A stretch of 64,000 nt of DNA from an uncultured virus (IMG/VR IMGVR_UViG_3300011440_000022) (Duplodnaviria; Heunggongvirae; Uroviricota; Caudoviricetes), in IMG/VR virus record IMGVR_UViG_3300011440_000022; one strand, written 5' to 3'. The translations under genes and the position numbers were made by a program. Below the pieces are notes generated by a model. The model saw only the letters and a list, made by a program, of their open reading frames with translations. It was not told where the DNA came from and made no database searches. Below are positions 1 to 29,291 of the stretch, one piece after another (the stretch's first letter is position 1; each line of letters begins with the position of its first letter).

Positions 1-1040
1 AGGGGGGTGCACATGCTTTATTTTTTCTTGAAATCAGGGGGAGGGGGTACCCCCTTGCATTACATGGCCTTGAAAATCCCAGGCAAGGTGGGGGGTACCC
101 CCTCATGTCATACATGGGGAGGGCAGGCAGTGTCAGGAGTAGGCCAGCAAGGTCAGGCCAGGGTCAGGCCAGGAGGGAGTGAGGTCAGGCAGAGGTCAGC
201 CCAGCCAGGAGGCCAGGCCTTTTCAAAAAGGGGAGGGCCGGGATTCCCGGCGGGAGGGCACGAGGTACGGGGAACGAGGGGCCAGGGAGGGCAGGCCCAA
301 AGTGGCTCCGTTGCAGCCACGAGGCAGTTTTGAAAACCCACCCAGCGGCAGGCGGTGGGTCTCGATTGGGCAGTGGGCGTGGTTGAACGGGAGGCGGGGA
401 AGGCTCCGTTGCAGGCCCAGGCCCACCAACCGAACACATGTTCCCAATCACAGCCTTGGAACTACACCAAGGGGAGGCTCCGTTGCAGCCGGATTCCAAA
501 TCGGGGTCATCGAGGGTCTCGATTCAGGGCCAACCGAGCCTCCGTTGCCACCCGAGCCAGGCCACCAACCCCAACCCTAAACCGGGTCACCCCCAGCTAC
601 ACCAGATGCGATTCAAAAGCCCCGTTTCCAAAACCCAGGAGCACCCCAGGTACCCCCTTTGCGGGAGGGCATCGGAGCGGGGAGGTCTCCCAAAATCCCA
701 GGACACCCCCGTTGCACCCAATTAGTTCGCAAACAATTAGTTCGCAAACCAGATTCTCCCAGCAAACTGAATTAGTTCGCAGGGCACACCCCCAAAACCC
801 TCTCAAGGCCTACACACGAAACTATAATTAGTTCGCAAAGTATTAGTAGTATCTATAAGGGTTTTCTCCCCCTCCGTCCGTTGCACCTACCCCGAACATA
901 CGTACGACCAGGGACATGTGCCCTGCGAACTAATTAATTCAGCCAACACACATTGCGAACTAATTCAACCCCTCAGAATCGCCCCGTTGCCCGAGCCGCA
1001 AAGACTTTGCGAACTAATTAGGCTCCGTTGCGTCAGAGAC
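1..1040. repeat. Non-coding repeat region: putative replication origin and/or genome terminus
   Basis: GGGGGTACCCCC palindromes (43-54, 91-102); (GGCT)CCGTTGC x8; AATTAGTTCGCA x4 forward (720, 735, 770, 826) and x3 reverse (924, 954, 1008); G-rich to C-rich strand switch; ORFs here look spurious. Confidence 0.7.
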
Positions 1041-1068
1041 TCAGACACCACCCAGATAGGAGACCCAG

Positions 1069-1326
1069 ATGAGCGTGTGGAAAGCAGGCGACTCCCAGGA
1101 CATCGCCGAGGGCCATTGCCGGAAGCACAGCCTTCCGTTCGATCCAAACCTCGGCCCCGAGGGAGGCCTTTTCGCCATGACCTTTGAGGCGATGAAGGTC
1201 TTGGTCAGCCACGGCCCCGAGGACTCACTCACCCGAGCCGAATACCGACTGGCGGTTTCGTTGTTGGAATACACCGCCATCCATTTGCACAATCGCTTCG
1301 CCTACGACGAGAGCGATGGGCACTAG
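1069..1326 (+). CDS. Hypothetical protein
   Basis: AGGAG RBS upstream; converges on the primase gene. Confidence 0.55.
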   Translation: MSVWKAGDSQDIAEGHCRKHSLPFDPNLGPEGGLFAMTFEAMKVLVSHGPEDSLTRAEYRLAVSLLEYTAIHLHNRFAYDESDGH

Positions 1327-3779
1327 GCCCGCATCGTCGCCACGTACGCTTCCGGCTTGGGGCCACGAGTCCCAGGCGGGGTCTCACCCACCACCCGATA
1401 GACCAGCCCACCGGCTTCCAGGGAATCGAGAGCGGCGGAAAGCTCCGTTGCCGAGCCGTGCCGACCCAGGTAAGCCCACAGTTCCTTGCGGGTGACAAAC
1501 CGGCCAGGGTGATTCCGTATCGAGGCAAGCACCTTGGAGCCAAGCTCGGTCGCCACCACTCCCGAGAGCACCGCCGACGCCGAGACCCGGCTGTAACGCT
1601 CCCAGGCGACACCCGCGGCCATGTGTTCCAACTCGATCTGATCCGCTCCGTCGCAGGCGGCGTAAATGACTGCCACCCTCATTACTTGGTCAGGGGCGCG
1701 GGCCAGGAGGTCTCCGATCCCGTCCAGCTTTGCCAGCGCCTTGAGTTGGTCGTAGAGACCGCCGCCGTTCCACAGTTCGGAGACCTCCGGCGAGCGCCGC
1801 ATTTCAAAAACCCCGGTGCGAGCTACCCCCCGAATCCTCCCCGCCAACGCCGCCAGTTCGCTGACCGGCACGGTGTCACCATCGGGCATGGAGCGCTCTG
1901 AATGCGACCAAATCCAGTGGAAGCGATTGCCAACCCCGTTGGTGGCCGATAGCTGATCGAAACCGGCCAGTAGCTCGGTGGGGGTAATTCCCCCGGTGAG
2001 ACAGACGTGATACCCGCTGGACACTGCCTTGCCGGTAGTCAGCGCCTTGGTCGAAAGCGGATCGGTGTGGTCGTAAGCCACCCGTAGCTGATGGGACATG
2101 GTCGAGGCCTGGCGACCCATCACGGTCAGAATCCGGCTGAACTCTCCCTCGGTTATGCAGAGCCGTTGATCCTCGGAGCCGCCCTTTGCCACCCAGGAGC
2201 CGGACACCTTGTCCAGCACCATCTCAGGGTCAGCCAAATCGTGCACCAGCATCTCGCCCGAGCCGTAGCCGCCACGGATATTGGAGATGGCGAAGTCAGG
2301 GTCGAGCAGGCGCATGAAGTCCCGAGCCGCCGAGGTCGCGGTTCCCTTCCGCCCGGTGGCGGTAGTCCCGACCAGCGCTGAGAACACCACCGCCGGGTGC
2401 TGCACCTTGGGCGAGACCCGGCACACCACGTTCCGACCAATCCAGGCTCCGAGCATGGGAAGGAGCGAGCCGCCGATGGCCGGAATCGAGGCCTCGGTTG
2501 CATCGACGTGCAGTTTCAAAACCTCACCGACCAGCCCGCCGCCGAACACCGCAGGCTCAAGCTCGGGAGTCTCCCCCTGCAAGTCGCCCTTGCGATACAA
2601 GCGCAGGCCCACCGGCAATTCGATCCCGCCGTCCAGATACTTCGGCGGGTGCACCACACCGAGAAACCCCCTGGTCGCATCGAACTCGTCAGGTTCGCCA
2701 TCTGGATTGGGGGGAGGCGTTTCAGAAACCGTTTTTGAATCAGCCGGATCGAGACCTCGATCCGTTTCAGTTCCAGCCAGCCCCGCCGAGACCGAGCCGA
2801 GCCAGCGATCCATTGACTCGACACCTTCGGCATCGAGGTCTTCCATCCCGTCGCCGAGCTTGTCCCGGCGCATCTCGGCGATCTGATCGTCGTACTGCCC
2901 GCCCTTGATCTTGGCGATGGCCGACTGCCACATCGTTTCGTAGTCAGCCTGGCGCTGGCGGTTCCAGCGCTTGGCCGGGTTGGGGTCAGAGTCCCGCCGC
3001 TCCCGGTACTGCTCAAGAATCTGATCGTGAGCCGCCCATCCGTCGTAGAACCCGGCTTCGACTTCCTTGGTCGCGGCCCACACCGCATTCATCGCCGACA
3101 TGCGCCGGTGCTCGCCAGCCCCGATGATCCGGTTCAGCATGTCCGCTATGACCCGGTCGAGGAAGGCTTGGCCTGCTTTCTCCGAGCCGTGCAGCCATCC
3201 CTCCCGGCTATTCAAAAACTCATCGACATCGACCCTTGAGGCCGGGTCAATCGGGGTGAGGTCTCCGGTGGGCTTGCCGTCCAGGGCCACCATCGGGACT
3301 TTCAGATCGAAGTCAGCCCGTATCGAGTGAGGCAGATCGGAAATGGGCCGGGACACCATCTCCGGTTCCAGCGAGCAGAGCACGTAGCCGCCGATCCCCT
3401 TGATGTCGCCGCCGGGGATCGGCCTCCCCCCGAACAACCCCCGGTAGTAGTGATGGTCGCCGCCCCGGTACAGCGACTTGAAGACCAGGGTGGGATTCTC
3501 GGCGAGCGCTTTCAAAAGTGCGGTGGGCACTGCCTCCGGCTCATCGATGTCGATGACCACCAGCCCCGACTTGCCGCAGTCAACCCCGACGTAGGCCAGG
3601 CCACCGGCCATCGCCCACAGCCGCTTGATTCCCGGCCCGTCGGTGGCCGAGGCCTCCCGCCAGCCAAGGGCCAGGGCCGGGGCTTTGTCGGCCTTGAGCG
3701 GGAACACCGCCGCATCGAGCAGGGTGGCAATCTCTACTGCCCTATCTCCCGTCACCGGGGCCGAGCGCGGGTCTAACAT
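1323..3779 (-). CDS. Bifunctional DNA primase/polymerase (Prim-Pol) fused to a DUF3987-like P-loop helicase domain
   Basis: N-terminal VFPL..KAP, GLVVIDID, GDHHYY, DIKGIGGYV; C-terminal Walker A-like GTTATGRKGT, GSGE, EGEF, G..NRF; winged-helix-like end. Confidence 0.8.
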   Translation of the reverse strand: MLDPRSAPVTGDRAVEIATLLDAAVFPLKADKAPALALGWREASATDGPGIKRLWAMAGGLAYVGVDCGKSGLVVIDIDEPEAVPTALLKALAENPTLVFKSLYRGGDHHYYRGLFGGRPIPGGDIKGIGGYVLCSLEPEMVSRPISDLPHSIRADFDLKVPMVALDGKPTGDLTPIDPASRVDVDEFLNSREGWLHGSEKAGQAFLDRVIADMLNRIIGAGEHRRMSAMNAVWAATKEVEAGFYDGWAAHDQILEQYRERRDSDPNPAKRWNRQRQADYETMWQSAIAKIKGGQYDDQIAEMRRDKLGDGMEDLDAEGVESMDRWLGSVSAGLAGTETDRGLDPADSKTVSETPPPNPDGEPDEFDATRGFLGVVHPPKYLDGGIELPVGLRLYRKGDLQGETPELEPAVFGGGLVGEVLKLHVDATEASIPAIGGSLLPMLGAWIGRNVVCRVSPKVQHPAVVFSALVGTTATGRKGTATSAARDFMRLLDPDFAISNIRGGYGSGEMLVHDLADPEMVLDKVSGSWVAKGGSEDQRLCITEGEFSRILTVMGRQASTMSHQLRVAYDHTDPLSTKALTTGKAVSSGYHVCLTGGITPTELLAGFDQLSATNGVGNRFHWIWSHSERSMPDGDTVPVSELAALAGRIRGVARTGVFEMRRSPEVSELWNGGGLYDQLKALAKLDGIGDLLARAPDQVMRVAVIYAACDGADQIELEHMAAGVAWERYSRVSASAVLSGVVATELGSKVLASIRNHPGRFVTRKELWAYLGRHGSATELSAALDSLEAGGLVYRVVGETPPGTRGPKPEAYVATMRA

Positions 3780-3867
3780 GGCCGACTCGGTTGGAATAAC
3801 ACCACAGAGCAGGCAGGCCCGTCTTCGACAGACTCCCGAAGGCGGGCTTGTTCTTGAATTGGGTTGC

Positions 3868-4155
3868 TCAGTCGGGCAGATTGAGCACGGTCACGGTTGC
3901 GCTGGTCAGGCATTCCTCAAAAATTTCCGGGTACAGCGCTTCCAAGCGAGCACGATTGATCGAGGTTCGCTCGTAGCGATTGATGGATACGCCGACCGCA
4001 CCCGAGGCCAGCAAGCCTTCGGTCTCACCAGCGCCTTCCAGATATTGGAGCAGGCGGTCTCGGAGCACCTTCTCGGTTCGTTCGATGGCCCGTTTGTTCG
4101 CCCGCACTTCCCGCAGTTGGTCTACGGCTTCAGCAAGCTCGGGGGGAAGGATCAT
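3868..4155 (-). CDS. Hypothetical phage protein (coiled-coil)
   Basis: GGAGG RBS before ATG 4155; typical small phage protein composition. Confidence 0.55.
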   Translation of the reverse strand: MILPPELAEAVDQLREVRANKRAIERTEKVLRDRLLQYLEGAGETEGLLASGAVGVSINRYERTSINRARLEALYPEIFEECLTSATVTVLNLPD

Positions 4156-4328
4156 CGACAATGCCTCCGGTGTCTCGGTCGGTCTTGGGAAAGCCCGGCC
4201 CGGTCGTTCGCCCCACTTCCAGGCCTCCCACCACAGAAGGCCAGAGCAAACGAACCGGGCCAGTCCGACGACTCTAGGCCGACGAGACCCCCCGAGAACC
4301 GTCAATCAGACCAAGACTTTTCGCGCCT

Positions 4329-4348
4329 CTGCGCGATATATCGCGCAG
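4329..4348. repeat. Perfect 20-bp palindrome CTGCGCGATATATCGCGCAG
   Basis: Read directly; lies between small leftward genes. Confidence 0.9.
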
Positions 4349-4451
4349 CCCGAGGCCCGGCTCCCTACCCGCCCTTTGTTTTTGAAAGCACGTACAGGAT
4401 CATGCCGACCAGCCCAGCGCAGAAGAGGATCAGACCAATGAGTTCCAAGGC

Positions 4452-4565
4452 TCATTCATCGTCGTGTCTCGCCGCGAAGAGCAGCGAGGCGACGAGCACG
4501 CCGAGGTTGGCCCCGACAAAGACTCCGATCAGAAGCACGATCCAGGGATCGAGGTCATCGAGCAT
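4452..4565 (-). CDS. Small membrane protein (37 aa)
   Basis: MLDDLDPWIVLLIGVFVGANLGVLVASLLFAARHDDE; one hydrophobic segment; AAGGGG RBS. Confidence 0.5.
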   Translation of the reverse strand: MLDDLDPWIVLLIGVFVGANLGVLVASLLFAARHDDE

Positions 4566-4643
4566 TCCGGCCCCTTACCCAACTAGGCTCGCTTCCAGCG
4601 GACTCACCCCGAGGTCGCCCGACTGAGACTCTAGGAGGCTCAC

Positions 4644-4943
4644 ATGTCAGACCAGCCAGACCGAGACCCGATCCAATCCCCCGACCCACTGGCGTTCTTC
4701 GGCTACGTCACCGCCCGCACCGCCCTTGAGATGCAGGCCGAGGCCCAATCGCTCAACTTGACTGCCGGGATCGAGTGGGCCAACCGGGAGCGGGTACGCA
4801 CCATCCAGGGGCTTGCCTCCAAGATCGAAGACCAAGCTGCCGAGCTTCTCTACAGCCTCCCCCACACCCCCGAGGTAAAGGCATCGCTTGACTCGCTGTG
4901 GCCGGACGACGACACACCGGACGACGACGATGCCGGTCGTTGA
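4644..4943 (+). CDS. Hypothetical protein
   Basis: AGGAGG RBS; good codon usage. Confidence 0.65.
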   Translation: MSDQPDRDPIQSPDPLAFFGYVTARTALEMQAEAQSLNLTAGIEWANRERVRTIQGLASKIEDQAAELLYSLPHTPEVKASLDSLWPDDDTPDDDDAGR

Positions 4944-5181
4944 CGACGGCTCGGGGCCGAGAGACCGACACCAGCAATGGCACGACGAGCGAGAGGTTCC
5001 CGACTTCCAGATAGCCACGCTCGCCGCCACCGCCAATGTCCTCATCGATGAGTTGGGAGTTGGTGAGGACGAGGCGATCCAAGTCGCCATCCTGATCGAC
5101 ACCGCTCAGAAGGAAGCACTCGCCGAGTTCGGCCCCGAGTTGACCTTGAGCGCCGCCGAGGTTCTGTGGGGGAATCGATGA
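4930..5181 (+). CDS. Hypothetical protein
   Basis: Overlapping operon arrangement; acidic protein. Confidence 0.55.
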   Translation: MPVVDDGSGPRDRHQQWHDEREVPDFQIATLAATANVLIDELGVGEDEAIQVAILIDTAQKEALAEFGPELTLSAAEVLWGNR

Positions 5182-5300
5182 AATGGCTTGACGACCTCAG
5201 CACCGTTCAGTTTGTCGGGGTCACGATCGCCTTAGCTTGGTGTGTCTTCGTCGTGGTCTCGGTGCTCATGGCTATCGGATGGCTGATCCGGCTGATATGA
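5178..5300 (+). CDS. Small membrane protein (40 aa)
   Basis: ATGA overlaps on both sides; one TM segment. Confidence 0.5.
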   Translation: MKWLDDLSTVQFVGVTIALAWCVFVVVSVLMAIGWLIRLI

Positions 5301-5581
5301 AGACACCGCCCACCGAATGCCCGCATTGCTCGGAGACTCACACCGGGGCAGGCCATGTCTGGATCGTCACACAAGGGCGGGTGACGCAGCCCGAGTTGGA
5401 TGCCCTGGTGCAGACTCACCACATCTCAAGGTGCCGAGTCTTTGACGGTGGATCGAATCGAACCGTGGGCGCAGGCCCGCTCACCGACCGGGATCGAATC
5501 CATCACGAGGCGGCTATCGCATCGGTCTTCGACGCCTTGGAAGGTAACGGATTCTCGGTGGGCAAGGGAGACCCCCGGTGA
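5297..5581 (+). CDS. Hypothetical protein with CxxC
   Basis: ATGA-coupled to the upstream gene. Confidence 0.55.
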   Translation: MKTPPTECPHCSETHTGAGHVWIVTQGRVTQPELDALVQTHHISRCRVFDGGSNRTVGAGPLTDRDRIHHEAAIASVFDALEGNGFSVGKGDPR

Positions 5582-5765
5582 AGTGTGGCGATCAGAGCAT
5601 CCTGTATCCGCTTTAGCTATAGCTAAACCGGGTGGCGTTGGCCTTCTCCCGACCGGGGGTCAGTGTCTATGTCGCGAGCGGGGCCAGAAACGAAAGCGAT
5701 TTCTTTGATAGGTCGAAAGAACCATTCAAGTTTGAATTACAGTCGTCGATAATTGATCCCACACA

Positions 5766-5883
5766 TGCGAAGGCTCTGAAAGCCGCCTGGTTGTGGGGAG
5801 TGCGAGTTGCGGGTTCTTACCTTTCTTTCTCGCAGCCGATGCAAGCCGGTGGGTGCAACCAGGCGGCGCTCAGAGCTTTCGCA
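5766..5883 (+). ncRNA. Rod-like structured leader RNA upstream of the Ltp gene
   Basis: 14-bp stem (5766-79/5870-83), 12-bp stem (5782-93/5856-67) and 8-bp inner stem with G-U pairs favouring the + strand; pyrimidine-rich loop. Confidence 0.6.
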
Positions 5884-5906
5884 ACCGAACAAGAAAGGGG
5901 TCAGAC

Positions 5907-6422
5907 ATGACTTCAGACACAAAGGCTCCGGTGGCTCCCACCGAAGCCACGACCAAGAAACCCATCTACAAGCGAGTGTGGGTCTACGTCCTGGCGATTG
6001 CGTTCATCGCGATCATTGCCAATAGCGGAGGCAACGATGCTCCCGCCGTAGCCGATACCACCGGCACCATTACGACCGAGGCACCGGCACCGACCGATGC
6101 TCCCGTCGTGACCGAGGCTCCGGCCCCGACCATGACCCGCAGCCAGGAGAACGCAGTTGCAAGCGCCGAGTCCTACTTGGATTTCAGCGCCTTCTCCCGC
6201 TCCGGCCTGATTGGTCAGTTGGAGTTTGAGGACTACTCAACCGCCGATGCCACCTTCGCCGTGGACTACCTCAACGTCGATTGGAACGAGCAGGCGTACA
6301 AATCCGCCGAGCAGTATTTGGACTTCTCGTCCTTCTCAGCCGGGGAACTCCGAGACCAATTGGAGTTTGAGGGATTCACTCCCGAGCAAGCCGCCTACGG
6401 GGTAGCTCAGACCGGCCTCTAA
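5907..6422 (+). CDS. ltp: Ltp-family host-surface protein (putative superinfection exclusion)
   Basis: TM segment, Thr/Pro linker, two Ltp-type repeats (SQENAVASAESYL..AFSR.GL..QL.FE; DWNEQA.KSA.QYL...FS...L.DQL.FEGFT.EQA.Y). Confidence 0.85.
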   Translation: MTSDTKAPVAPTEATTKKPIYKRVWVYVLAIAFIAIIANSGGNDAPAVADTTGTITTEAPAPTDAPVVTEAPAPTMTRSQENAVASAESYLDFSAFSRSGLIGQLEFEDYSTADATFAVDYLNVDWNEQAYKSAEQYLDFSSFSAGELRDQLEFEGFTPEQAAYGVAQTGL

Positions 6423-6444
6423 AGCCACTGCCGCTAACGACGGG

Positions 6445-6477
6445 AAAGGGGAGCCGAGCAATCGGCTCCCTTTTTCT
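6445..6477. terminator. Intrinsic, likely bidirectional terminator
   Basis: GGGAGCCGA-GCAA-TCGGCTCCC followed by TTTTT, between convergent genes. Confidence 0.8.
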
Positions 6478-6626
6478 TACGAGCGGTGAGCATCGCTGGT
6501 GAGATGGTTGTTGGCGATAACCACCGCTTGATTGGGCGTGGTTTTGAAACCGAGGTTGTGGCTCCAACCACAATCGCATTCCAGCCACACCCCATCGTCG
6601 CTATTGAAATAGGTGAGCCAGATCAC
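6477..6626 (-). CDS. Small hypothetical protein (CxCGW motif)
   Basis: GTGA overlap with the upstream gene. Confidence 0.45.
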   Translation of the reverse strand: MIWLTYFNSDDGVWLECDCGWSHNLGFKTTPNQAVVIANNHLTSDAHRS

Positions 6627-6919
6627 GCCACTTGCCCGCAGCATCGGTAGGGGTTGTTCCAAAGCTGGACTCGGGGCGGCTGGTAGAGCGGGTCGGTCTC
6701 GGGGTTGTACCCCGGTGGCAGGATCGGAGCGATGGTTCCGACCCGAGCCTCGTCCCGCATGATGTCGAAGAGGAAGCTCACCGCCTCATCTTCACTTTCA
6801 AAAGGGTTGTCCGAGGGGATGCGCCCGAGAACCGAGAGCACGGTGAACCGGCGATGGTTGCCCGAGGCCAGGAGCCGGATGACTTGCCGGGCCTCACTTT
6901 CAAAAAGCTCGACGCTCAT
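6623..6919 (-). CDS. Hypothetical protein
   Basis: ATG 6919 (MSVELFESE); good codon usage. Confidence 0.55.
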   Translation of the reverse strand: MSVELFESEARQVIRLLASGNHRRFTVLSVLGRIPSDNPFESEDEAVSFLFDIMRDEARVGTIAPILPPGYNPETDPLYQPPRVQLWNNPYRCCGQVA

Positions 6920-7158
6920 GGTGCCAGGGTATCCGCACAGGCAGGCGCTTGGGTGTGAGGAATGGTGTTGCCGTGAAAAGCCTCGGGGATGGTGAGACAG
7001 GAGACCACCGAGCCTCGTGGCTCGGATGGCGCATCGAGAATCGAGAGCCAGAGCAGTCCGATCAAGGCAAGGGTGGCACACCCGAGCAGGAGCATTTCAC
7101 GGCCCGACATTGACTCCCTGCCCCACTCAGGTATTGTCTCACGCATAATAGGAATGGG

Positions 7159-7417
7159 AGACAGCGGCACGCCCCGAAGCAGCAAAGGCCGAGGGGGGTA
7201 AAAGGCTTATCGTGCCCTGTGGTGCCCAGGAGCGGTCTACGCACCAATCCGCTTGTACCGCCGGATTATGAGCCGGTAGGAAGAGCCACCACAGGATGAC
7301 CAAGAGCCGCCGTGTTGTCTCAAAGACTTGGCCCGGCCCTGATGCGCCCTGGTCGGAACGAAGGCTCAGTGAAGAGCCGGAGTTTAAAGACCGGGAAGAC
7401 CAGGGGCCGGGCTGTCT
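7159..7417 (+). ncRNA. Candidate ~260-nt multibranch structured RNA
   Basis: Closing stem AGACAGC/GCTGTCT plus at least seven nested helices; TTGACT-N16-TATTGT promoter-like element at 7110-7137; no credible ORF. Confidence 0.5.
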
Positions 7418-7481
7418 TATTGGATGGATTAGTACGCTGTGATAATCTCCCGCCAGACCCGAGACCTAGAGAGAGGACGAG

Positions 7482-7751
7482 ATGAAGTATCTACTGAATC
7501 GTTGGTCATGGACGCTGTCTGCCCCGATGTGGCATCGGGAGGGGTGCGGCCATCTTCCCGCCACCGAAGACCTCAGCCCCACACAGTGGCTCATCGATAT
7601 TCCCGAGTGGCTTTTCGTCGCTTACTTGCTTGCCGACAACGAGGCGCTGGCAACTCTCGCCAATGGATACCGACCACAGTGCTGCGCTGACTGTCTCCCC
7701 AACCCACTCGCTGTTCTCCGGCCAGCGCCCGAGTTGGCTCACGCTGGTTGA
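7482..7751 (+). CDS. Hypothetical protein with Cys/His motifs
   Basis: GAGGA RBS; GATAAT -10-like box at 7441. Confidence 0.55.
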   Translation: MKYLLNRWSWTLSAPMWHREGCGHLPATEDLSPTQWLIDIPEWLFVAYLLADNEALATLANGYRPQCCADCLPNPLAVLRPAPELAHAG

Positions 7752-7877
7752 GCATCTTCACGATTTGGCTCGCCACTGAGATTGTCGTCCTGCTACTCGT
7801 GGCGTGGCTCTGGCCCTGGCCTCCGCAGCCACCCAGGAGCAAGTAGGATTTTTGAACGGTGGCCTTGGGAGGCAGAA

Positions 7878-7916
7878 GGGAGAAACCCCCGTCCGAGAGG
7901 GCGGGGGTTTCTCTTT
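7878..7916. terminator. Intrinsic terminator hairpin
   Basis: AGAAACCCCCGTCC-GAGA-GGGCGGGGGTTTCT followed by CTTT. Confidence 0.75.
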
Positions 7917-7971
7917 GCACCGAGCCGCCAACCATGTGAATCGAGGATGCCCGGTGCAGTTTTGAAAGTTA

Positions 7972-8142
7972 GCCCGTCCCGGCCAGGGGATTCCGGGGAG
8001 GATCACTTGTGCCAAGGGACGGGCCGGAGCAGAGTAATCGGTTTGCATTCCCGCCGCCCTTGGGTAAGGTTCGGGAACGGCATGGTTCGTTGGTGCGATC
8101 CACCGATACCTACGGGTCTCGGTGAAATCCACCAAAGAACCA
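7972..8142 (+). ncRNA. Candidate structured RNA (series of hairpins, one capped by cUACGg)
   Basis: GCCCGTCCC/GGGACGGGC, TTCCCG/CGGGAA and a long bulged hairpin at 8083-8142; lies between two terminators. Confidence 0.45.
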
Positions 8143-8147
8143 AGTCA

Positions 8148-8177
8148 GAAGAGACCCCGCTTCGGCGGGGTCTTTTC
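8148..8177. terminator. Intrinsic terminator (cUUCGg loop)
   Basis: GAAGAGACCCCGC-TTCG-GCGGGGTCTTTTC. Confidence 0.85.
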
Positions 8178-8223
8178 GTATAGGGTTACAATTACCTACT
8201 GACGTGGAAAGAGACACAAGACA

Positions 8224-9510
8224 ATGAAACGCTCGCTCGCTGTGGCAACCCTGGTGTTGGTTGTCCTCGCAGTATCAATCCCCGTACTTGGTGACACCCC
8301 CGAGCACAAGATTCTGATTTGCCATCTCCCGCCAGGGAATCCCGAGAACGGCCAGGCCATCGAGATAGACCGCAACGCTTGGGAGCAAGGTGGGCCTCCC
8401 GGTCATCACGCCGAGGGCAATCACGGCGGCGATTTTGAAATTAAAGATGACGATGATTTGAAACGGTGCGAGGGCAAGGAAGAGACCACCACGACCGAGA
8501 AAGACACCACGACCACCAAGCGGGAAACCACCACCACTGACAAAGACACCACCACAACCACCAAGCCAGAGACCACGACCACCGACAAAGAGACCACGAC
8601 CACCGACACGACCACGACCACGACAACTACGACGACGACGACGACGACGATGCCGACGACGACGACGACCGAGCCGCCGACACCGACTCAGTTCTGCGTT
8701 GATGTCAACAACGCTCCGCAAGCCGAGTTGGAAGAGTTGGGCGGCATCTCCCCGGCCCTGGCTCTGCTCATCATCGCCAACCGGCCCTACGAATCAGTGC
8801 AGGATTTAGGCGACCTATTCGGGCCGGGAGTCCTGGCCGCGATCTTGCTGGTCAATCCGACAACCGGAGCTTTCGCATCCGACGCTTGCCTCACCCCGGT
8901 CACGGTCACGACCAGCACAACGACCAGCACCAGCACTACGACCACGACCACTGCGCCGCCCACCACCCCGCCAACGCTCCAAGCCGGGAACGTGACCGCA
9001 GTGTGCGTGAGCAATATCCCGTTCTTCGCTTACGAGATTCTGAACTTCCCCGAGGGCACCCTGCTCTCAGAGATTCGTTTTGAAAACCCCGAGCCGGGCG
9101 GGGCCGACTTGGTCTACGTCAACCAACCGCTCACCGGGCAAGTGCTCTGGCCGGGAGCCAGCGCCGACCCCGAGGACTGGCCCGGTTGGATTTTGAATGA
9201 GGACGGGATTTGGGTCGAAGGCGACGACGGGTTCTTGTGGGCCAGGGAAGCGGTGCAAGTCACCTTCACCATCAACCCCTCCGTGACCGTGACCGTGACC
9301 TACCCACCAGCCTCAGCGATTTGCGCCGGGCCGGTGAACCCGGCCATCACCACCACGCCGGGATCGACTGCGCCGGATGGAGTGACCACCACCCGAGCCG
9401 GGGTGTTGCCCTTCACCGGAAGCGAGCTTCTGGCGCTCGGGTATCTGGCCGGAGCCACCTTCCTGCTCGGTCTGATCTTGCTGGTCTCGGCCCGCAAGCA
9501 GGAGTCATAG
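8224..9510 (+). CDS. Secreted, LPxTG-anchored Thr-rich surface protein with a ComEA-like helix-hairpin-helix domain
   Basis: Signal peptide; KILICHLPPGNPEN Cys/His module; Thr-rich stalks; VDVNNAPQAELEELGGISPALALLIIANRPYESVQDL (HhH); LPFTG + TM + RK tail. Confidence 0.8.
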   Translation: MKRSLAVATLVLVVLAVSIPVLGDTPEHKILICHLPPGNPENGQAIEIDRNAWEQGGPPGHHAEGNHGGDFEIKDDDDLKRCEGKEETTTTEKDTTTTKRETTTTDKDTTTTTKPETTTTDKETTTTDTTTTTTTTTTTTTTMPTTTTTEPPTPTQFCVDVNNAPQAELEELGGISPALALLIIANRPYESVQDLGDLFGPGVLAAILLVNPTTGAFASDACLTPVTVTTSTTTSTSTTTTTTAPPTTPPTLQAGNVTAVCVSNIPFFAYEILNFPEGTLLSEIRFENPEPGGADLVYVNQPLTGQVLWPGASADPEDWPGWILNEDGIWVEGDDGFLWAREAVQVTFTINPSVTVTVTYPPASAICAGPVNPAITTTPGSTAPDGVTTTRAGVLPFTGSELLALGYLAGATFLLGLILLVSARKQES

Positions 9511-9593
9511 ACTTCTCGCTGAACCCCGTCGGGTCACATTCCCTGAATTCCACATTCAGAGTCTCCCTCCCGGCGGGGTTCATCTGTCTCAAC

Positions 9594-9621
9594 TTGCATT
9601 GCAATTATGCCGATGTATAAT
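9594..9621 (+). promoter_or_regulatory. Sigma70-like promoter TTGCAT-N16-TATAAT with a CAATTA spacer motif
   Basis: Same architecture recurs at 29264, 29510 and 31234. Confidence 0.75.
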
Positions 9622-9652
9622 TGTGAGCGTAAGAGACAGACAGGAGCCAGAC

Positions 9653-9841
9653 ATGAAGTACGGAGCCACCGGCAACTACCCCTGGATGGGGAACAGCGAC
9701 GTGGCGCACATCATCAAGGAACAGCACCCGATGGGGCGAGCGTGGATCGCATGGTGCGGACGCACCGTCTACGACCCCCGTGACAAAAAGCCCGCTTGGG
9801 CCAAGGTGTGCAAGCGTTGTGAGAAAGCGAGCCAGACATGA
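9653..9841 (+). CDS. Small Cys/His (zinc-binding-like) protein
   Basis: AGGAG RBS; H..WCG..CKRC. Confidence 0.6.
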   Translation: MKYGATGNYPWMGNSDVAHIIKEQHPMGRAWIAWCGRTVYDPRDKKPAWAKVCKRCEKASQT

Positions 9842-10128
9842 ACGAGAACGTGAAGATCAAAAATACATGGGATGAGTCCGTGAAGACCTTCTGGATGGAA
9901 GGGCTGACCACTCCCGATGGGAAGCGGGAAATCACCCAGGCCACTCGGACGACCGACAACACGACGGGCGTGGTCTCGTGGGCTTGGCGGGGTTACGAGC
10001 TTCGGAAGGATGGGAAGCGGCGGTCGAACGCCGGTCTGACTTCGGCCAACTTCTACTTCGATGAGGAAGTCGAGACCATCTTGATTGCCGAAGTCGTGGT
10101 CGCTCAAGCCGTTCGGACAACCGAATGA
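9838..10128 (+). CDS. Hypothetical protein
   Basis: ATGA-coupled; G(Y)xLRKDG motif. Confidence 0.65.
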   Translation: MNENVKIKNTWDESVKTFWMEGLTTPDGKREITQATRTTDNTTGVVSWAWRGYELRKDGKRRSNAGLTSANFYFDEEVETILIAEVVVAQAVRTTE

Positions 10129-10337
10129 GCACAACGTGCGACCAGCCGATGCGGACGGGAACTTGTGTCTTGGACACCGACCACCGCGGACGGCATACCA
10201 CCGTCGCCTTCTACTGCGAGAGTTGTGGCAAGACTCGCCGGGGCAAGCCCCACTCGATGTCCGTTGTCCGGCTTGGTGACGGGAGCATTGACGATCAGTT
10301 CGCCTTCTGCTTCCTGTGCGTGAGGTACGCAGCGTGA
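10125..10337 (+). CDS. Small zinc-finger-like protein
   Basis: ATGA-coupled; C..C.L..DH.G.H and two CxxC. Confidence 0.6.
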   Translation: MSTTCDQPMRTGTCVLDTDHRGRHTTVAFYCESCGKTRRGKPHSMSVVRLGDGSIDDQFAFCFLCVRYAA

Positions 10338-10723
10338 GTCAGGATTACGACCCGCAGTACGGGCACTTCCGAATCACCGGCAACGAGCATTGGGTCGATG
10401 CCAGCGCCAACTACGAGACCGAGGAAGAGCGTGACCAAGTGCTCGCCCTCTTCCCGAAGTGGGTCAAGGCCAAGGGCAGTCGCCTCAGCTACTACACCGG
10501 CTCGATGAAGACCAACGACTTCACCAGCCACTCATGTCCCACCATCGTTTTCCATGCCGACCTTCGGGCAACCGGAGTGAGCGGCAAGGTCAACGAGACC
10601 GGACTCAAGCGCTACCGGAGATTCCGTGAGGTCTTGGCACGCCAGGACTTCCCCCGAGGTTGGCACCAGCCCTACAGCAACTCGCTCACCGAGGACGAGT
10701 TCCACGAGGCGCACGGAATATGA
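10334..10723 (+). CDS. Hypothetical protein
   Basis: GTGA-coupled; high coding bias. Confidence 0.65.
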   Translation: MSQDYDPQYGHFRITGNEHWVDASANYETEEERDQVLALFPKWVKAKGSRLSYYTGSMKTNDFTSHSCPTIVFHADLRATGVSGKVNETGLKRYRRFREVLARQDFPRGWHQPYSNSLTEDEFHEAHGI

Positions 10724-11100
10724 GCATGGAAACCCACAAGCACTTCGGGATCAATTGGTGGGTTGACATCAACACCAGCCGAATCCGAGTCAGTATTGAA
10801 CCGGAGCGGTGGGCTGAGTACGGCGAGTTCCAGTGGGTCTCGGTTGAGACCACCTATGCCGGTGGTGCCCTCTTCGTCGGCCACGACTCCGAGACTGGCA
10901 AGTACCACATTTTTGAAATGGGTGGAACGTGGATCGATCCGTGGGACAAAGAGCACGCCGGTCTCTACGAGTCACCGCTCGATGCTCTCAAAGCCGCCGC
11001 TCGGATTTTGAAAGACGACCACATCGAGGGGATGAAGTGGGAAGTCCTCATCGATGAGGCGATGGCCGCAGCCGAGAGAGCCGAGGCCGAGGCCGAGTGA
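10720..11100 (+). CDS. Hypothetical protein
   Basis: ATGA-coupled; ends before the terminator. Confidence 0.65.
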   Translation: MSMETHKHFGINWWVDINTSRIRVSIEPERWAEYGEFQWVSVETTYAGGALFVGHDSETGKYHIFEMGGTWIDPWDKEHAGLYESPLDALKAAARILKDDHIEGMKWEVLIDEAMAAAERAEAEAE

Positions 11101-11188
11101 GAGAACGACTCGGGCAATGGCTCGCCAAGCTGTTCGCTTGGGATCGAGACCGGCGACTCCGGCGCTGGCACCGACGAATCAAGTAACG

Positions 11189-11223
11189 GAAAGAGGGAAC
11201 GCTTTCGGGCGTTCCCTCTTTTC
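11189..11223. terminator. Bidirectional intrinsic terminator
   Basis: AAAGAGGGAACGCT-TTCG-GGCGTTCCCTCTTTT between convergent operons. Confidence 0.85.
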
Positions 11224-11374
11224 GGTTCCTCTGTCAAGGAAGATCATTCCTCTTCGTCAAAGTCCTCTGGCTCGGCGGGGTGTTCGGCGGGTACCGGTTC
11301 CGGCCCCGGTGCATTGGGTAGCTCGGGCTGTGGTGGTGGCCGGGTGTCCTCGTCGCTCGGTGGTGGCATCTCCA

Positions 11375-12079
11375 TCAGTCGGTTACCTCATCGGCAAGGC
11401 CAACGTCCTTGGAGAAGCGGTACATCACCGTGGCGAACTCGCCCCGCTCGATGGGGTCTTGCGCCCTGAACTCGCCGGTTTTCTTCTTCTCGTCCCGCCC
11501 GCCGAGCATGATGCCACCATTGATAACGAACTTGATGCCGTCGTCGTGGGGAGGCCAGTCGTCGGTCGGGTAGGTGTAGCCGTCTTTCGATTTCCAAGTA
11601 GACACAGTGCCTCCCGTATCCCAAGTGATGGTTCGCACGTCTGACGGTGCGACGTTGATTTGCCAGTGCATGGCATCCGGTGGGTTGCTGCACGGCCATC
11701 TCCCACCCCACTGAATCGCCTGCTTCCCGTTCGCCCGAATTCCCTCCATCCTCTTGATGAAGCTGGACGGGTAGTTGTGTCTCAGTGGGCAGTCGTAGGG
11801 ATTCTTCGATGGGTTGAGGTCGAGGGCCAAGGCAAAGGCGTGCAGCGATGTCGAGCCGCCCGCTGTATCTCGGCAGTTGTAAATGCCACCCGAGGACTCA
11901 CGGAAGTAGTACGGCTCGGAGGCCATGATCTGTGCGACCGCTTTCCAAATCGGAGCCGACTCGGAAGCGACCGAGAGATTCCACACCACTCCATCGCCGG
12001 GGAAGCCGACCTTCACGTAGCGGTCGGGGGAGCATTCGTACTTCGCCCACCATGACCGAACCTGAGATGATGAGGCCAT
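11375..12079 (-). CDS. Endolysin: M15-family zinc peptidase with a C-terminal SLH-like domain
   Basis: YNCR..SLHAFALALDLNP..WGGRW..DAMHWQ; C-terminal GIMLG..FRAQDPIERGEFATVMYR. Confidence 0.85.
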   Translation of the reverse strand: MASSSQVRSWWAKYECSPDRYVKVGFPGDGVVWNLSVASESAPIWKAVAQIMASEPYYFRESSGGIYNCRDTAGGSTSLHAFALALDLNPSKNPYDCPLRHNYPSSFIKRMEGIRANGKQAIQWGGRWPCSNPPDAMHWQINVAPSDVRTITWDTGGTVSTWKSKDGYTYPTDDWPPHDDGIKFVINGGIMLGGRDEKKKTGEFRAQDPIERGEFATVMYRFSKDVGLADEVTD

Positions 12080-12161
12080 AGGCCAACCCTACAGTTTTGA
12101 AAGACGGGGTGTGGGGTAAGATTCCTCAGAGACCAAGAACTCTTCGGAGTTCTTGGTCTCG

Positions 12162-12707
12162 CTAATTGGCGACACAGATTGCCACCGCCACATCAGTATC
12201 TACCGGCTCCCGTTGATGAAGCTCGACTTGCGCGATTTGGAATCCAGGCGGGCAGGCCGGGCCAGGAATCCCCTGCTCCCCCTGCGCCCCTTGCGGCCCT
12301 GGCTCGCCCTGCGCTCCCGGCGCGCCTTGCGGCCCCGTTGCCCCTTGTGCTCCCGGCTCACCGTCTGCTCCGGCTGCTCCCCGAGGGCCGGTGTCGCCGG
12401 TAGCCCCTGTAGCCCCGCGTGCTCCATCTGCTCCGTCCTGGCCTGGTTGTCCGGTTGCCCCTGGCAACCCACGCTCACCCTGTAGCCCCTGCAATCCCTG
12501 TAGACCTTGCGGCCCTGGCTCGCCCGCTGGCCCTGGTTCGCCTTGCTCACCCGCTGGCCCCGGTGGGCCGGGTGGCCCCGGCGGGCCTACGGCAGTCGAA
12601 GCCTGGCTCGCGTTGGGTGAGGCCAAAGCCAGAGCAAAGGCTATGAGCAGAAGCAGCCCGGCGATTCCAAAACCGAGAAGTGGATTAGAAGTGATTCGGT
12701 CGATCAT
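12162..12707 (-). CDS. Membrane-anchored collagen-like (Gly-X-Y) protein
   Basis: N-terminal TM segment, long GXY repeat, C-terminal CPPG..C; within the lysis cluster. Confidence 0.8.
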
Positions 12708-12961
12708 GCGTCTTCCACTTTCCTTTCCACCAACCCTTCCAATTCGGTACGTCGAGCATCGGTACGCCCGGCAATGAATCCGGCCAGCAATCCAATCAGG
12801 GTGTTGATGGTGTCGGAGACAAGAGCAATACCTTGAGTCGTGTCAGTGGTGGGATCGAGGATTTCAACAATGGCAATGACGATAAGAGAAATCAGCACCG
12901 AGACACAGATGGTGCCACCGATGAGTAGAACCAAAAGCTCGCCGGTTGTTCTCCCTTTCAA
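12704..12961 (-). CDS. Two-TM membrane protein, putative holin
   Basis: Two hydrophobic helices and a charged C-terminus; upstream of the endolysin. Confidence 0.55.
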
Positions 12962-13115
12962 AAATCACGCTTCCCAAGATGCAGGCTACTTGCTTTCGAT
13001 CTTCGCGATCTTGTATGGTCTCGGGTAGAGCGACTGAGCGCTTAGTGCGACGTACCTCTTTTCTTGTGACCTAGACCGCGTCGGAAGTACCGCTAGGAAG
13101 GAAAGAGGTTTCCGC

Positions 13116-15068: not shown

Positions 15069-15080
15069 TAGACGACGTTC

Positions 15081-15104
15081 GGGAGCGGGCTTCGGCCCGC
15101 TCCC
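15081..15104 (+). terminator. GC hairpin after the capsid gene (weak U-tract)
   Basis: GGGAGCGGGC-TTCG-GCCCGCTCCC. Confidence 0.6.
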
Positions 15105-15131
15105 CCCAAGCCATAGTGAAGGAGATTTCAA

Positions 15132-16175: not shown

Positions 16176-16183
16176 TGGGAGGA

Positions 16184-16215
16184 AGGGAGCGCTCCGGCAG
16201 GGGCGCTCCCTCTTT
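16184..16215 (+). terminator. Intrinsic terminator
   Basis: AGGGAGCGCTCC-GGCA-GGGGCGCTCCCT followed by CTTT. Confidence 0.65.
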
Positions 16216-16233
16216 CCCCGATAGGGTTAGGCC

Positions 16234-17280: not shown

Positions 17281-17282
17281 AA

Positions 17283-17528
17283 ATGATCGAGAACGAGAAT
17301 GGCGAGACCACGATGATCGACATGCCCGATGCTGAGACTCCAACTGTCGAAGAGCTACAGGCAAGAGTCTTTGAACTAGAGCGATACATCGCTTTACAAA
17401 CCAATACAATTGCCGCCTTCCGGCATCGCAACATTCGGTTGGAGATGGAGATTGTCGAATTGATGAGCCAGCTTCCCCACATCTACAGCGCGCCCATCAC
17501 GGATTCAGAAGATGGAGCACAAGGATGA
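17283..17528 (+). CDS. Hypothetical coiled-coil protein
   Basis: ATG 17283 directly after the tail fibre gene. Confidence 0.55.
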   Translation: MIENENGETTMIDMPDAETPTVEELQARVFELERYIALQTNTIAAFRHRNIRLEMEIVELMSQLPHIYSAPITDSEDGAQG

Positions 17529-19188: not shown

Positions 19189-19202
19189 GGAAGGACTCGC
19201 AA

Positions 19203-19382
19203 ATGAACAACGAACAGCCCGAGGCCGAGACTGAGACCGAGCAACTCGCCGCCGAGATACGGAACATGGAGTTCAGTGCCGGGTCGCTCTACGTCAACGT
19301 CGATGTCAACGATCTACTTGAGACCCACACCGAGGAAGAGACATTTGAGCTTCTCGGGAAGCTAAAGGACTTGCTGCAATGA
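19203..19382 (+). CDS. Small acidic hypothetical protein
   Basis: AAGGA RBS; ATGA-coupled to the next gene. Confidence 0.5.
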   Translation: MNNEQPEAETETEQLAAEIRNMEFSAGSLYVNVDVNDLLETHTEEETFELLGKLKDLLQ

Positions 19383-19699: not shown

Positions 19700-19700
19700 C

Positions 19701-29263: not shown

Positions 29264-29291
29264 TTGCATTTCAATTACAGATGAGTATAAT
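29264..29291 (+). promoter_or_regulatory. Promoter TTGCAT-N16-TATAAT with CAATTAC
   Basis: Matches 9594 and 29510. Confidence 0.75.

What the first reader, a model, noticed from the sequence alone, without database searches (positions are those of the whole stretch)
7110..7420. Candidate novel ~260-nt multibranch ncRNA
Seen: an ORF-poor interval after TTGACT-N16-TATTGT (7110-7137) with nested helices. These are AGACAGC 7159-65/GCTGTCT 7411-17 (closing), GGCACG 7166-71/CGTGCC 7211-16, CTGTGGTG 7217-24/CACCACAG 7287-94 (enclosing AGCGG/CCGCT and TACCG/CGGTA), and CCGGCC 7333-38/GGCCGG 7405-10 (enclosing CCTGGTC/GACCAGG and GGCTC/GAGCC). Junctions are purine-rich and AAGAGCC occurs three times. 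I see no tRNA, tmRNA, RNase P or hammerhead hallmarks. Inference: an undescribed phage structured RNA such as a protein decoy, sponge or ribozyme.
Basis: partly seen in the sequence, partly recalled or inferred. Interest (0 to 1): 0.75.

Follow-up and report, generated by a model that had tools for sequence, protein, structure and literature searches.

The report
Candidate structured small RNA, sediment phage
A phage known only from sediment and groundwater metagenomes carries a non-coding stretch of about 265 bases that folds stably and appears in RNA libraries, so it is probably a new small phage RNA of unknown function, found so far in one narrow lineage.

Summary
The proposed fold under one closing helix is not supported: enforced it gives -94.9 kcal/mol against an MFE of -126.2, and only 3 of its 8 helices have pairing probability near 1.

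The best model has two domains: a branched domain 1 (7158-7321) and a long GC-rich, terminator-like domain 2 (7323-7418).

**For a real + strand RNA**
- The core folds with z -4.9, -4.3 and -3.9 in three natural variants.
- It is non-coding, and more conserved than nearby spacers.
- In two metatranscriptome runs the only contigs on 1.5 kb lie at 7177-7420 and 7204-7348.

**Against, or weak**
- Only three near-identical sequences exist, so covariation is not significant (one compensatory pair).
- Similar z-scores occur elsewhere in the genome, and domain 1 alone reaches only z -2.4.
- RNA depth is low and strand is unknown.
- There is no Rfam, tRNA or tmRNA match, and no homologue in 80 related phage loci or 5 near-complete relatives.

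Verdict: a probable lineage-specific phage small RNA, or a leader-derived one. Function is unknown. Interest is moderate.

The parts
6623..6919 (-). orf98, a divergently transcribed 98-aa ORFan that bounds the intergenic region on the left
   Evidence: Codon-position GC is 0.66/0.44/0.78. No relative outside its own cluster among 5.8 billion proteins. Atlas fold hits are weak, TM 0.5 or less, and are a lead only.
7110..7137 (+). sigma-70-like promoter TTGACT-16-TATTGT
   Evidence: The only such hit in 1-20000. Both hexamers are identical in window, L002 and L003. Not above the chance expectation of 4.0 per 20 kb.
7144..7155 (+). inferred transcript start and short unstructured 5' end, variable between variants
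   Evidence: 6 of L003's 7 changes in segment 7110-7155 lie at 7144-7152, while sequence from 7153 on is conserved. The start site itself is inferred from the -10 position.
7158..7321 (+). domain 1: branched fold closed by GAGACAGCGGC/GCCGUGUUGUCUC, containing the 9-bp helix 7216-24/7287-95
   Evidence: Same MFE fold in window, L002 and L003. Alone it gives z -2.43, matched by 2 of 200 shuffles. Two U-A to U-G changes and one C-G to U-G change keep pairs.
7323..7418 (+). domain 2: long GC-rich hairpin. AAGAC/GUCUU plus an 11-bp GGCCCGGCCCU/GGGGCCGGGCU stem, with inner helices 7348-54/7389-95 and 7363-67/7374-78
   Evidence: Folded with its tail it gives -55.9 kcal/mol, z -5.20, matched by 0 of 200 shuffles. 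It holds the one compensatory pair, 7366/7375 U-A to C-G in L003. The L002 double change at 7349/7350 keeps pairing with 7393/7394.
7412..7420 (+). U-rich tail UGUCUUAUU and the likely 3' end
   Evidence: The X19 RNA contig matches up to 7420 and then runs into 24 unlike letters, while the X17 DNA contig runs on unchanged. Variants diverge and carry indels from 7418 on. Not flagged by the terminator scan, whose loop limit is 8.
7177..7420 (.). interval covered by a contig of metatranscriptome run X19. Run X20 covers 7204-7348.
   Evidence: these are the only RNA-run contigs on 6800-8300. Both have 0 differing letters, at depth 2 and 3.8.
7437..7445 (+). TGTGATAAT, a possible extended -10 promoter for orf89. 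It begins a 45-nt block that is conserved in all three sequences.
   Evidence: Read from alignment A1. Inference only; not called by the promoter scan.
7482..7751 (+). orf89, an 89-aa ORFan that is a real gene
   Evidence: 11 of 17 differences to L003 are at third codon positions, with no indel (positions, counted by hand). 94% aa identity. No relative outside its own cluster.
7880..7913 (+). canonical hairpin terminator that closes the promoter-to-terminator cassette
   Evidence: 15-nt arms, 93% complementary, 4-nt loop, followed by TTTG. 0 differences in L002 and L003.

Best explanation
The interval holds a real non-coding RNA gene on the + strand, about 275 nt long, from about 7144 to about 7420. 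It sits inside a lineage-specific promoter-to-terminator cassette: promoter 7110-7137, the RNA, the small gene orf89 at 7482-7751, and a terminator at 7880-7913. The cassette belongs to a roughly 92-kb phage that encodes its own replication genes and is known from sediment and groundwater metagenomes. The RNA folds in two domains rather than under one closing helix. Domain 1 (7158-7321) is branched. Domain 2 (7323-7418) is a long GC-rich, terminator-like hairpin followed by UGUCUUAUU. Proposed mechanism: host RNA polymerase starts at the sigma-70-type promoter. Most transcripts end, or are trimmed, at the foot of domain 2. The compact RNA outlasts the neighbouring mRNAs. It then acts in trans, more likely by binding a protein than by antisense pairing. 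Read-through may add to orf89 expression. Shown here: the sequence features, fold stability in three variants, non-coding status, higher conservation than neighbouring spacers, and presence in RNA libraries. Inferred: the transcript's start, end and strand, and the whole trans-acting, protein-binding step.
For: Fold: the core has z -4.86, -4.33 and -3.93 in window, L003 and L002, each matched by 0 of 200 shuffles, and all three give the same MFE architecture. The + strand is more stable than the - strand (z -3.26). Non-coding: codon-position GC is flat in all overlapping ORFs. Inside the core, L003 has four single-base insertions and L002 one single-base deletion, all in unpaired columns, and they frameshift those ORFs. 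L002 also has a 7-base deletion at 7418-7424, at the core's 3' edge. Constraint: difference to L003 is 5.3% in the core, against 15% at 7110-7155, 9.7% at 7420-7481 and 26.6% at 7752-7879. Pairing: 250 of 252 cells are paired, seven pairs changed on one side only and stayed paired (G-U on the + strand), and one pair is compensatory. On the window-only MFE, 2 substitutions break pairs on the + strand against 5 on the - strand. RNA: 2 of 22 listed runs are metatranscriptomes from two studies. Their only contigs on 6800-8300 lie at 7177-7420 and 7204-7348 with 0 differences, and nothing covers orf98, orf89 or the next gene. The RNA contig departs from the window at 7420, whereas the X17 DNA contig (7372-7745) continues. 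Against antisense action: the longest complementarity to the rest of the 64 kb is 13 nt, about chance level by my own estimate, and it lies inside a stable helix. Precedent: short structured 5'-proximal RNAs ended by early terminators are reported in virulent Pseudomonas phages (PMC10914365, passages read).
Against: Covariation is not significant: 161 of 500 shuffles reach the observed score with three sequences at about 95% identity. Substitutions avoid breaking pairs only weakly, 2 observed against 3.8 expected, P 0.14. Low z-scores are not unique to this element. 3 of 111 background windows fall below -4.86, and nearby windows reach -6. Most of the excess stability comes from domain 2, since domain 1 alone gives z -2.43. 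The promoter match is within chance expectation. The terminator scan does not call domain 2, and a 62-nt insert in a terminator stem is atypical. The RNA contigs have depth 2 to 3.8 and give no strand, DNA can be present in RNA libraries, and the 24-letter loose end is unexplained. There is no homologue in any relative, so function cannot be read from distribution. No partner protein is known.
Confidence: 0.4

Rival explanations
1. It is a cis-acting 5' leader or attenuator. The 340-nt structured leader belongs to the orf89 mRNA. Domain 2 acts as a conditional early terminator or mRNA stabiliser that sets orf89 expression. The short RNA seen in libraries is a by-product.
For: There is one promoter (7110-7137), one gene and one strong conserved terminator (7880-7913), which is a single-unit layout. 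Twenty-nine 5'UTR-derived short RNAs made by premature termination are reported in virulent Pseudomonas phages (PMC10914365, passages read). RNA contigs cover only the leader.
Against: A 17-nt hypervariable spacer with indels separates the element from a conserved block that begins with an extended -10-like TGTGATAAT, which suggests orf89 has its own promoter. By eye I saw no anti-RBS or antiterminator pairing that competes with the GC stem. No known riboswitch aptamer matched.
Confidence: 0.25
2. There is no RNA function. The interval is regulatory or spacer DNA between divergent genes, and its GC-rich inverted repeats fold well by chance or serve only as a transcription stop. The RNA-library contigs would then be incidental.
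For: Comparable z-scores occur elsewhere. Covariation is not significant. Domain 1 alone is only modestly stable. The element is absent from every relative tested. RNA depth is low.
Against: Both RNA contigs fall inside the 264-nt core of a 1.5-kb stretch, and one ends at the element's 3' edge. The core is 2 to 5 times more conserved than neighbouring non-coding spacers. All indels fall in loops, and all one-sided helix changes keep pairing on the + strand.
Confidence: 0.2
3. One reading: a single multibranch RNA closed by 7159-65/7411-17 that acts as a decoy, sponge or ribozyme.
For: All the helices are present and are perfect Watson-Crick. The closing helix is invariant in the three sequences, so the alignment does not contradict it. 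AAGAGCC occurs three times.
Against: The enforced fold is 31 kcal/mol above the MFE and no better than shuffles. Five of its eight helices have probability 0.04 or less. Two variant changes break its helices: G to A at 7171, and C.A at 7350/7402. Both are accommodated by the two-domain fold. No ribozyme family matched.
Confidence: 0.07
4. It is a nascent-RNA device acting on polymerase or replication. One version is a put- or EAR-like processive antiterminator that carries transcription through the two conserved terminators (7880-7913, 8148-8177) into the next gene. Another is an origin primer transcript.
For: The structured RNA lies directly after a promoter and upstream of two terminators that are 100% conserved, and I saw no conserved promoter before gene 8224-9510. 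The primase-polymerase gene lies 3.3 kb away.
Against: Downstream genes have their own repeated promoter-like motif from 9594 on. The known put and EAR elements are much smaller, which I state from recall. No origin features were identified. Nothing here tests the idea.
Confidence: 0.05

Closest known systems
5'UTR-residing short structured ncRNA candidates of virulent Pseudomonas phages (phiKZ, PAK_P3 and others; PMC10914365, passages read)
   Same: A phage promoter is followed within a few hundred nt by a structured segment and an early 3' end, giving a short, abundant RNA upstream of a gene. Function is mostly unknown.
   Different: No sequence or model relationship was tested or is claimed. 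Those RNAs are mostly under 250 nt and have mapped 5' and 3' ends. Here the ends are inferred, and the 3' hairpin carries a 62-nt branched insert.
GOLLD, ROOL and OLE large ornate RNAs (PMC12286853, search listing and abstract only)
   Same: They are large, highly structured non-coding RNAs without known catalytic function. From recall, GOLLD and ROOL are often phage- or prophage-borne.
   Different: None of their Rfam models matched even at E up to 10. This RNA is about 265-275 nt, against roughly 500-800 nt (sizes from recall). No tRNA lies nearby.
Moron-type transcription units of phages (promoter, gene, terminator inserted between conserved genes; concept from recall)
   Same: The cassette from 7110 to 7913 has a promoter, a terminator and ORFan content. 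It is absent at the syntenic place in the nearest relative L004/G002.
   Different: Classical morons carry a protein gene only. Here a 264-nt structured RNA is the promoter-proximal and best-conserved part.
HK022 put RNA and lambda PR' 6S leader transcript (from recall)
   Same: A promoter-proximal structured RNA lies upstream of terminators, and a short stable leader transcript accumulates.
   Different: put is about 70 nt with two stem-loops. No similarity was tested, and the downstream genes here have their own promoter-like motifs.

Membership tests
Any Rfam 15 family (4227 models) | Covariance-model score at or above the family's gathering threshold | tested here: not met
   0 hits over the whole window. 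At E up to 10 on 6900-7700 there were only 2 noise hits (mir-532 at 13.8 bits, sR23 at 11.4 bits), both at 6987-7078 and outside the element.
tRNA / tmRNA | ARAGORN detection of a cloverleaf or a tag-peptide structure | tested here: not met
   0 genes in 64 kb.
Structured functional ncRNA (generic criteria) | Folding energy beyond dinucleotide shuffles | tested here: met
   z -4.86, -4.33 and -3.93, each matched by 0 of 200 shuffles. But 3 of 111 background windows are as low.
Structured functional ncRNA (generic criteria) | Statistically significant covariation in homologues | tested here: inconclusive
   3 sequences with 1 compensatory pair. 161 of 500 shuffles reach the observed score. The placement test gives P 0.14.
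Structured functional ncRNA (generic criteria) | A transcript exists | tested here: inconclusive
   Contigs from two metatranscriptome runs are confined to 7177-7420 and 7204-7348. Depth is low, strand is unknown, and DNA carry-over is not excluded.
Structured functional ncRNA (generic criteria) | Not protein-coding | tested here: met
   No codon-position bias. Single-base indels in L002 and L003 frameshift every overlapping ORF.
Intrinsic (Rho-independent) terminator, for domain 2 | GC-rich hairpin with a short loop, immediately followed by a U-tract | tested here: inconclusive
   An 11-bp GC-rich stem followed by UGUCUUAUU (6 U of 9) is conserved in 3 of 3 sequences. But the stem encloses 62 nt, so the scan, whose loop limit is 3-8, does not call it.
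Sigma-70 promoter | -35 and -10 hexamers with 16-18 nt spacing | tested here: inconclusive
   9 of 12 positions match and both hexamers are conserved in 3 of 3 sequences. One hit was found against 4.0 expected by chance in 20 kb. No TSS data.
Base-pairing (antisense) sRNA | Extended complementarity of an accessible region to a target mRNA | tested here: not met
   The longest match to the other 64 kb is 13 nt and lies within a stable helix. The host and the remaining roughly 28 kb of the phage were not searchable.
Riboswitch | A known aptamer class plus a competing expression platform | tested here: not met
   No aptamer family matched. I saw no antiterminator pairing against the GC stem by inspection. 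A new aptamer class cannot be excluded.
GOLLD / ROOL / OLE | Match to the family model; length of 500 nt or more | tested here: not met
   No hit at E up to 10. The core is 264 nt.

The most novel reading that the evidence does not exclude
The element is the founding member of a new class of phage-borne structured RNA with a tertiary fold. It would act either as a protein or RNA-polymerase decoy or scaffold, or as an RNA-only antitermination device. On this reading the repeated AAGGCUY...AAGAGCC helix flanks are recognition modules. It looks lineage-restricted only because its relatives have diverged beyond a model built from three sequences.
Probability: 0.1. Interest if true: 0.75.

Novelty: new member of a known kind. 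Interest (0 to 1): 0.42.

Why it matters
Small non-coding RNAs of virulent-type phages are turning up in numbers, but almost none has a known function. Environmental phages are barely sampled for them. Here an uncultured sediment and groundwater phage offers a defined candidate of about 275 nt, with a promoter, a likely 3' end, a consistent fold and traces in metatranscriptomes. If confirmed, it would be a concrete handle on RNA-based regulation or host interference in phages outside model systems. It would also show that metatranscriptome contigs can flag stable phage RNAs. Because it occurs in a single narrow lineage and has no functional clue, its general importance is uncertain for now.

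Tried and rejected
**Homologue searches that found nothing**
- blastn ('distant' mode) of 7100-7480 against 50,697 phage records.
- Exact patterns from the element in viral contigs. The pattern turned out to span two variable positions.
- An exact pattern in genome contigs.
- Relatives of orf98, the primase and the 428-aa protein in viral contigs. P0002 in viral contigs gave one 14-residue hit, L001, with no RNA match.
- nhmmer and blastn against 81 loci.
- Covariance model R1 against the window plus 81 loci, which found only itself at 342 bits.
- R1 with filters off on L004 1-10000, best hit 9.9 bits.
- R1 on 5 related phage records of 85-97 kb, with 0 of 5 matching.
- The nearest held record, G001, lacks the first 20 kb of the window.
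- The search of earlier findings by place and by sequence returned nothing.

**The 24-letter loose end of the X19 RNA contig**
It is not in the window, not in G001 (L002 and L003 could not be searched) and not in genome contigs. Its origin is unknown.

**Hypotheses rejected**
- tRNA, tmRNA or any Rfam family.
- A protein-coding small ORF.
- An antisense regulator of genes in this window.
- A retron or DGR-type RNA: no reverse-transcriptase hit among the 42 ORFs scanned against PHROGs, 15 of which were also scanned against Pfam.

**Leads that gave no usable name**
Atlas look-ups of orf89 and orf98 scored under 0.9 by features and at TM 0.51 or below by structure.

**Coverage gaps**
No RNA contig lay on 6800-7176 or 7421-8300 in X19 or X20. 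This is absence of contigs at low depth, not proof of silence.

**Literature**
Two full-text searches listed no paper describing this element. They searched general phage-ncRNA terms only.

Full report
**Context**

The window is phage DNA. It encodes a primase-polymerase (1323-3779, - strand), an Ltp-like superinfection-exclusion lipoprotein (5793-6422), a major head protein (13116-15068) and a major tail protein. Further on it encodes a DNA polymerase, helicase, clamp, exonuclease, Sak4-like annealing protein, SSB, an HNH endonuclease and portal-like proteins. No integrase appeared among the ORFs I scanned.

The finding lies in the gap between two divergent ORFan genes. On the left is orf98 (6623-6919, - strand; GC by codon position 0.66/0.44/0.78). 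On the right is orf89 (7482-7751, + strand). Neither has a relative outside its own cluster among 5.8 billion proteins.

orf89 is a real gene. Of its 17 differences to L003, 11 are at third codon positions and there is no indel (positions, counted by hand). Amino-acid identity is 94%.

**The observation**

TTGACT-16-TATTGT (7110-7137) is the only sigma-70-like site the scan finds in 6500-8300 and in 1-20000. Shuffles of the 20 kb give 4.0 such sites on average, so the match is not evidence on its own. Both hexamers are identical in the three natural sequences available.

AAGAGCC occurs at 7281, 7302 and 7372, out of 7 + strand copies in 64 kb. Some 7-mer occurs three or more times in 217 of 5000 shuffles of the core, so this is marginal. 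In L003 the third copy reads AAGGGCC, with a compensating change opposite it.

ORFs of 48-89 aa do overlap the interval. They show flat codon-position GC. Inside the core, L003 carries four single-base insertions (after 7257, 7272, 7368 and 7388) and L002 one single-base deletion (7388). L002 also has a 7-base deletion at 7418-7424, at the core's 3' edge. These indels frameshift the overlapping ORFs.

**The fold**

| Segment | Strand | ΔG (kcal/mol) | z | Shuffles as stable |
|---|---|---|---|---|
| Core 7156-7419, window | + | -126.2 | -4.86 | 0 of 200 |
| Core, L003 | + | -130.2 | -4.33 | 0 of 200 |
| Core, L002 | + | -121.3 | -3.93 | 0 of 200 |
| Core, window | - | -116.1 | -3.26 | 1 of 200 |
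| Domain 1 alone (7156-7322) | + | -70.0 | -2.43 | 2 of 200 |
| Domain 2 with tail (7323-7440) | + | -55.9 | -5.20 | 0 of 200 |

The three variants give the same architecture.

It has two domains:
- Domain 1 is closed by 7158-68/7309-21. It contains 7204-08/7304-08, the 9-bp helix 7216-24/7287-95 and three small hairpins.
- Domain 2 is built from 7323-27/7414-18, the 11-bp stem 7330-40/7403-13, 7348-54/7389-95, 7356-59/7382-85 and 7363-67/7374-78.

That is 31 kcal/mol above the MFE and no better than the shuffle mean of -100.9. Only three of the eight have pairing probability near 1.

Most of the excess stability lies in domain 2, as the table shows.

Low z-scores are not unique in this genome. 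Of 111 + strand windows between 10 and 60 kb (20 shuffles each), the mean is -0.79, the sd is 1.33, and 3 fall below -4.86. Several windows near the finding also reach -4 to -6.5.

**Relatives and evolution**

Only two other copies could be fetched, both from metagenome contigs: L002 and L003. They are about 95% identical to the window over the element.

On the consensus fold, 250 of 252 cells are paired. Seven pairs changed on one side only and stayed paired, through U-A to U-G, C-G to U-G, or U-G to C-G. One pair is compensatory: 7366/7375, U-A to C-G in L003. Two cells break, both in the weak 4-bp helix next to the hypervariable loop at 7384-7388.

With three sequences this is not significant. 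161 of 500 shuffles reach the observed score. When I placed the same substitutions at random on the window-only MFE, 3.8 breaks were expected against 2 observed, P 0.14. On the - strand fold, 5 break.

The variant data do discriminate between the two models in two places.

Constraint is clearer. The table gives divergence from L003 by segment.

| Segment | Divergence to L003 |
|---|---|
| RNA core 7156-7419 | 5.3% |
| Neighbouring coding genes | 3.4-7.3% |
| 7110-7155 | 15% |
| 7420-7481 | 9.7% |
| 7752-7879 | 26.6% |
| Both downstream terminators | 0% |

The conserved block begins at about 7153 and ends at 7418, which matches the edges of the fold.

**RNA evidence**

Of 22 runs listed for 7100-8200, 18 DNA runs hold half or more of its words. 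They come from sediment, freshwater-sediment, groundwater and 'outdoor' metagenomes. Two are metatranscriptomes from two studies, with small shares of 0.19 and 0.09.

I laid four runs on 6800-8300:
- RNA run X19 gives one contig, covering 7177-7420 with 0 differences at depth 2.
- RNA run X20 gives one contig, covering 7204-7348 with 0 differences at depth 3.8.
- No RNA contig lies on orf98, orf89 or beyond.
- The X19 contig leaves the window sequence at exactly 7420 and continues for 24 unlike letters.
- The X17 DNA contig (7372-7745) runs across that point unchanged.

I could not place the loose end. It may be a chimera formed at a true RNA 3' end, or a different genomic context. Both readings make 7420 a boundary.

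Contigs give no strand and no true ends, depth is low, and DNA carry-over cannot be excluded. Even so, two independent contigs both falling inside a 264-nt core within 1.5 kb is hard to attribute to random DNA. That is my inference, not a computed probability.

**Anatomy of the unit**

The parts run in this order:
1. The promoter at 7110-7137.
2. About 10 variable nucleotides.
3. The two-domain RNA.
4. A U-rich tail, UGUCUUAUU (7412-7420).
5. A 17-nt hypervariable spacer with indels.
6. A conserved 45-nt block beginning with TGTGATAAT (7437-7445). I read this as a possible extended -10 element.
7. orf89.
8. A variable spacer.
9. A perfect hairpin terminator at 7880-7913.

The nearest related phage is L004/G002, with 67% identity over the matched part of the major head protein (residues 192-649) and an estimated completeness of 100%. 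It has homologues of the primase and of the 428-aa protein, but nothing corresponding to orf98, the RNA or orf89.

The cassette therefore looks like a lineage-specific, moron-like insertion.

**Mechanism**

I commit to an independently made, stable small RNA of about 275 nt. Its 3' domain doubles as a terminator-like stop. I think it most probably acts in trans on a protein, with read-through into orf89 as a secondary route.

- The biogenesis part rests on the features above.
- The trans-acting, protein-binding part is inference. It draws on the high helical content, the lack of any complementarity longer than 13 nt to the other 64 kb, and the repeated AAGAGCC 3' strands, two of them (7302, 7372) opposite an AAGGCUY 5' strand (7202, 7361).

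The main rival is a purely cis-acting leader or attenuator of orf89. It matches a pattern reported in virulent Pseudomonas phages (PMC10914365, passages read). I cannot separate the two without transcript ends.

**Comparison with known families**

No Rfam 15 family matches at gathering score anywhere in the window. None matches within the element at E up to 10. ARAGORN finds no tRNA or tmRNA.

The element is not a member of GOLLD, ROOL or OLE, of any riboswitch class, or of any ribozyme family held in Rfam. In kind it is closest to the short structured promoter-proximal RNAs now being catalogued in lytic phages.

I therefore rate it a new member of a known kind, restricted so far to one species-level lineage. 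My confidence that it is a real RNA is moderate, about 0.6-0.65. Its function is unknown.

Noticed in passing
window 7914-8182 (+); L004 7388-7748: A second non-coding stretch folds even more stably: -131.5 kcal/mol, z -6.95, matched by 0 of 200 shuffles. It ends in a canonical 13-bp terminator at 8148-8177 followed by a U-tract. Its 3' two-thirds (about 7966-8177) are well conserved in L003, with one compensatory pair (8099/8127), but the long-range 5' pairing is broken there. The syntenic gap upstream of the 428-aa homologue in relative L004 is also extremely structured, z -8.87, and by eye shares a 12-mer with it. No RNA contig covered the stretch.
   Followed up: partly
window 9594-9623, 29264-29293, 29510-29539: Three copies of a 30-nt motif with TTGCAT, a 16-nt spacer and TATAAT (family D10). 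This is probably the phage's own strong promoter type. It differs from the promoter-like site in front of the RNA.
   Followed up: no
window 9631-9656, 28488-28524, 43076-43101: A repeated purine-rich leader, AAGAGACAGACAGGAGCCAGACATGA, ends in a start codon (family D6). The GAGACAG part recurs at the 5' end of the RNA (7158-7164) and at 6995-7001.
   Followed up: no
window 7004-7021: A hairpin, CCGAGCC-TCGT-GGCTCGG, has a loop that reads ACGA in L002 and in the X16 and X17 contigs. That is the exact reverse complement of the loop, as if the hairpin had been inverted.
   Followed up: no
window 8224-9510: The 428-aa protein starts with a hydrophobic, signal-like N-terminus, MKRSLAVATLVL (read by hand). 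It also has long Thr-rich repeats, a helix-hairpin-helix motif and a widespread C-terminal domain, with 1398 representatives at E 0.001 or below. Its function is unknown.
   Followed up: partly
window 12234-12572: A 9-nt periodic GC-rich repeat of 10 or more copies (family D1) lies inside ORF 12162-12707 (- strand). This is consistent with a collagen-like Gly-X-Y repeat protein.
   Followed up: no
window 48280-48343, 58656-58719, 60742-60805: A 64-nt segment is shared at 69-73% identity by three - strand genes (family D4). It suggests a common terminal module in three large virion-type proteins.
   Followed up: no
window 5704-5967 (+): Another locally very stable window, z about -6 with 30 shuffles, spans the region upstream of and into the Ltp-like gene.
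   Followed up: no
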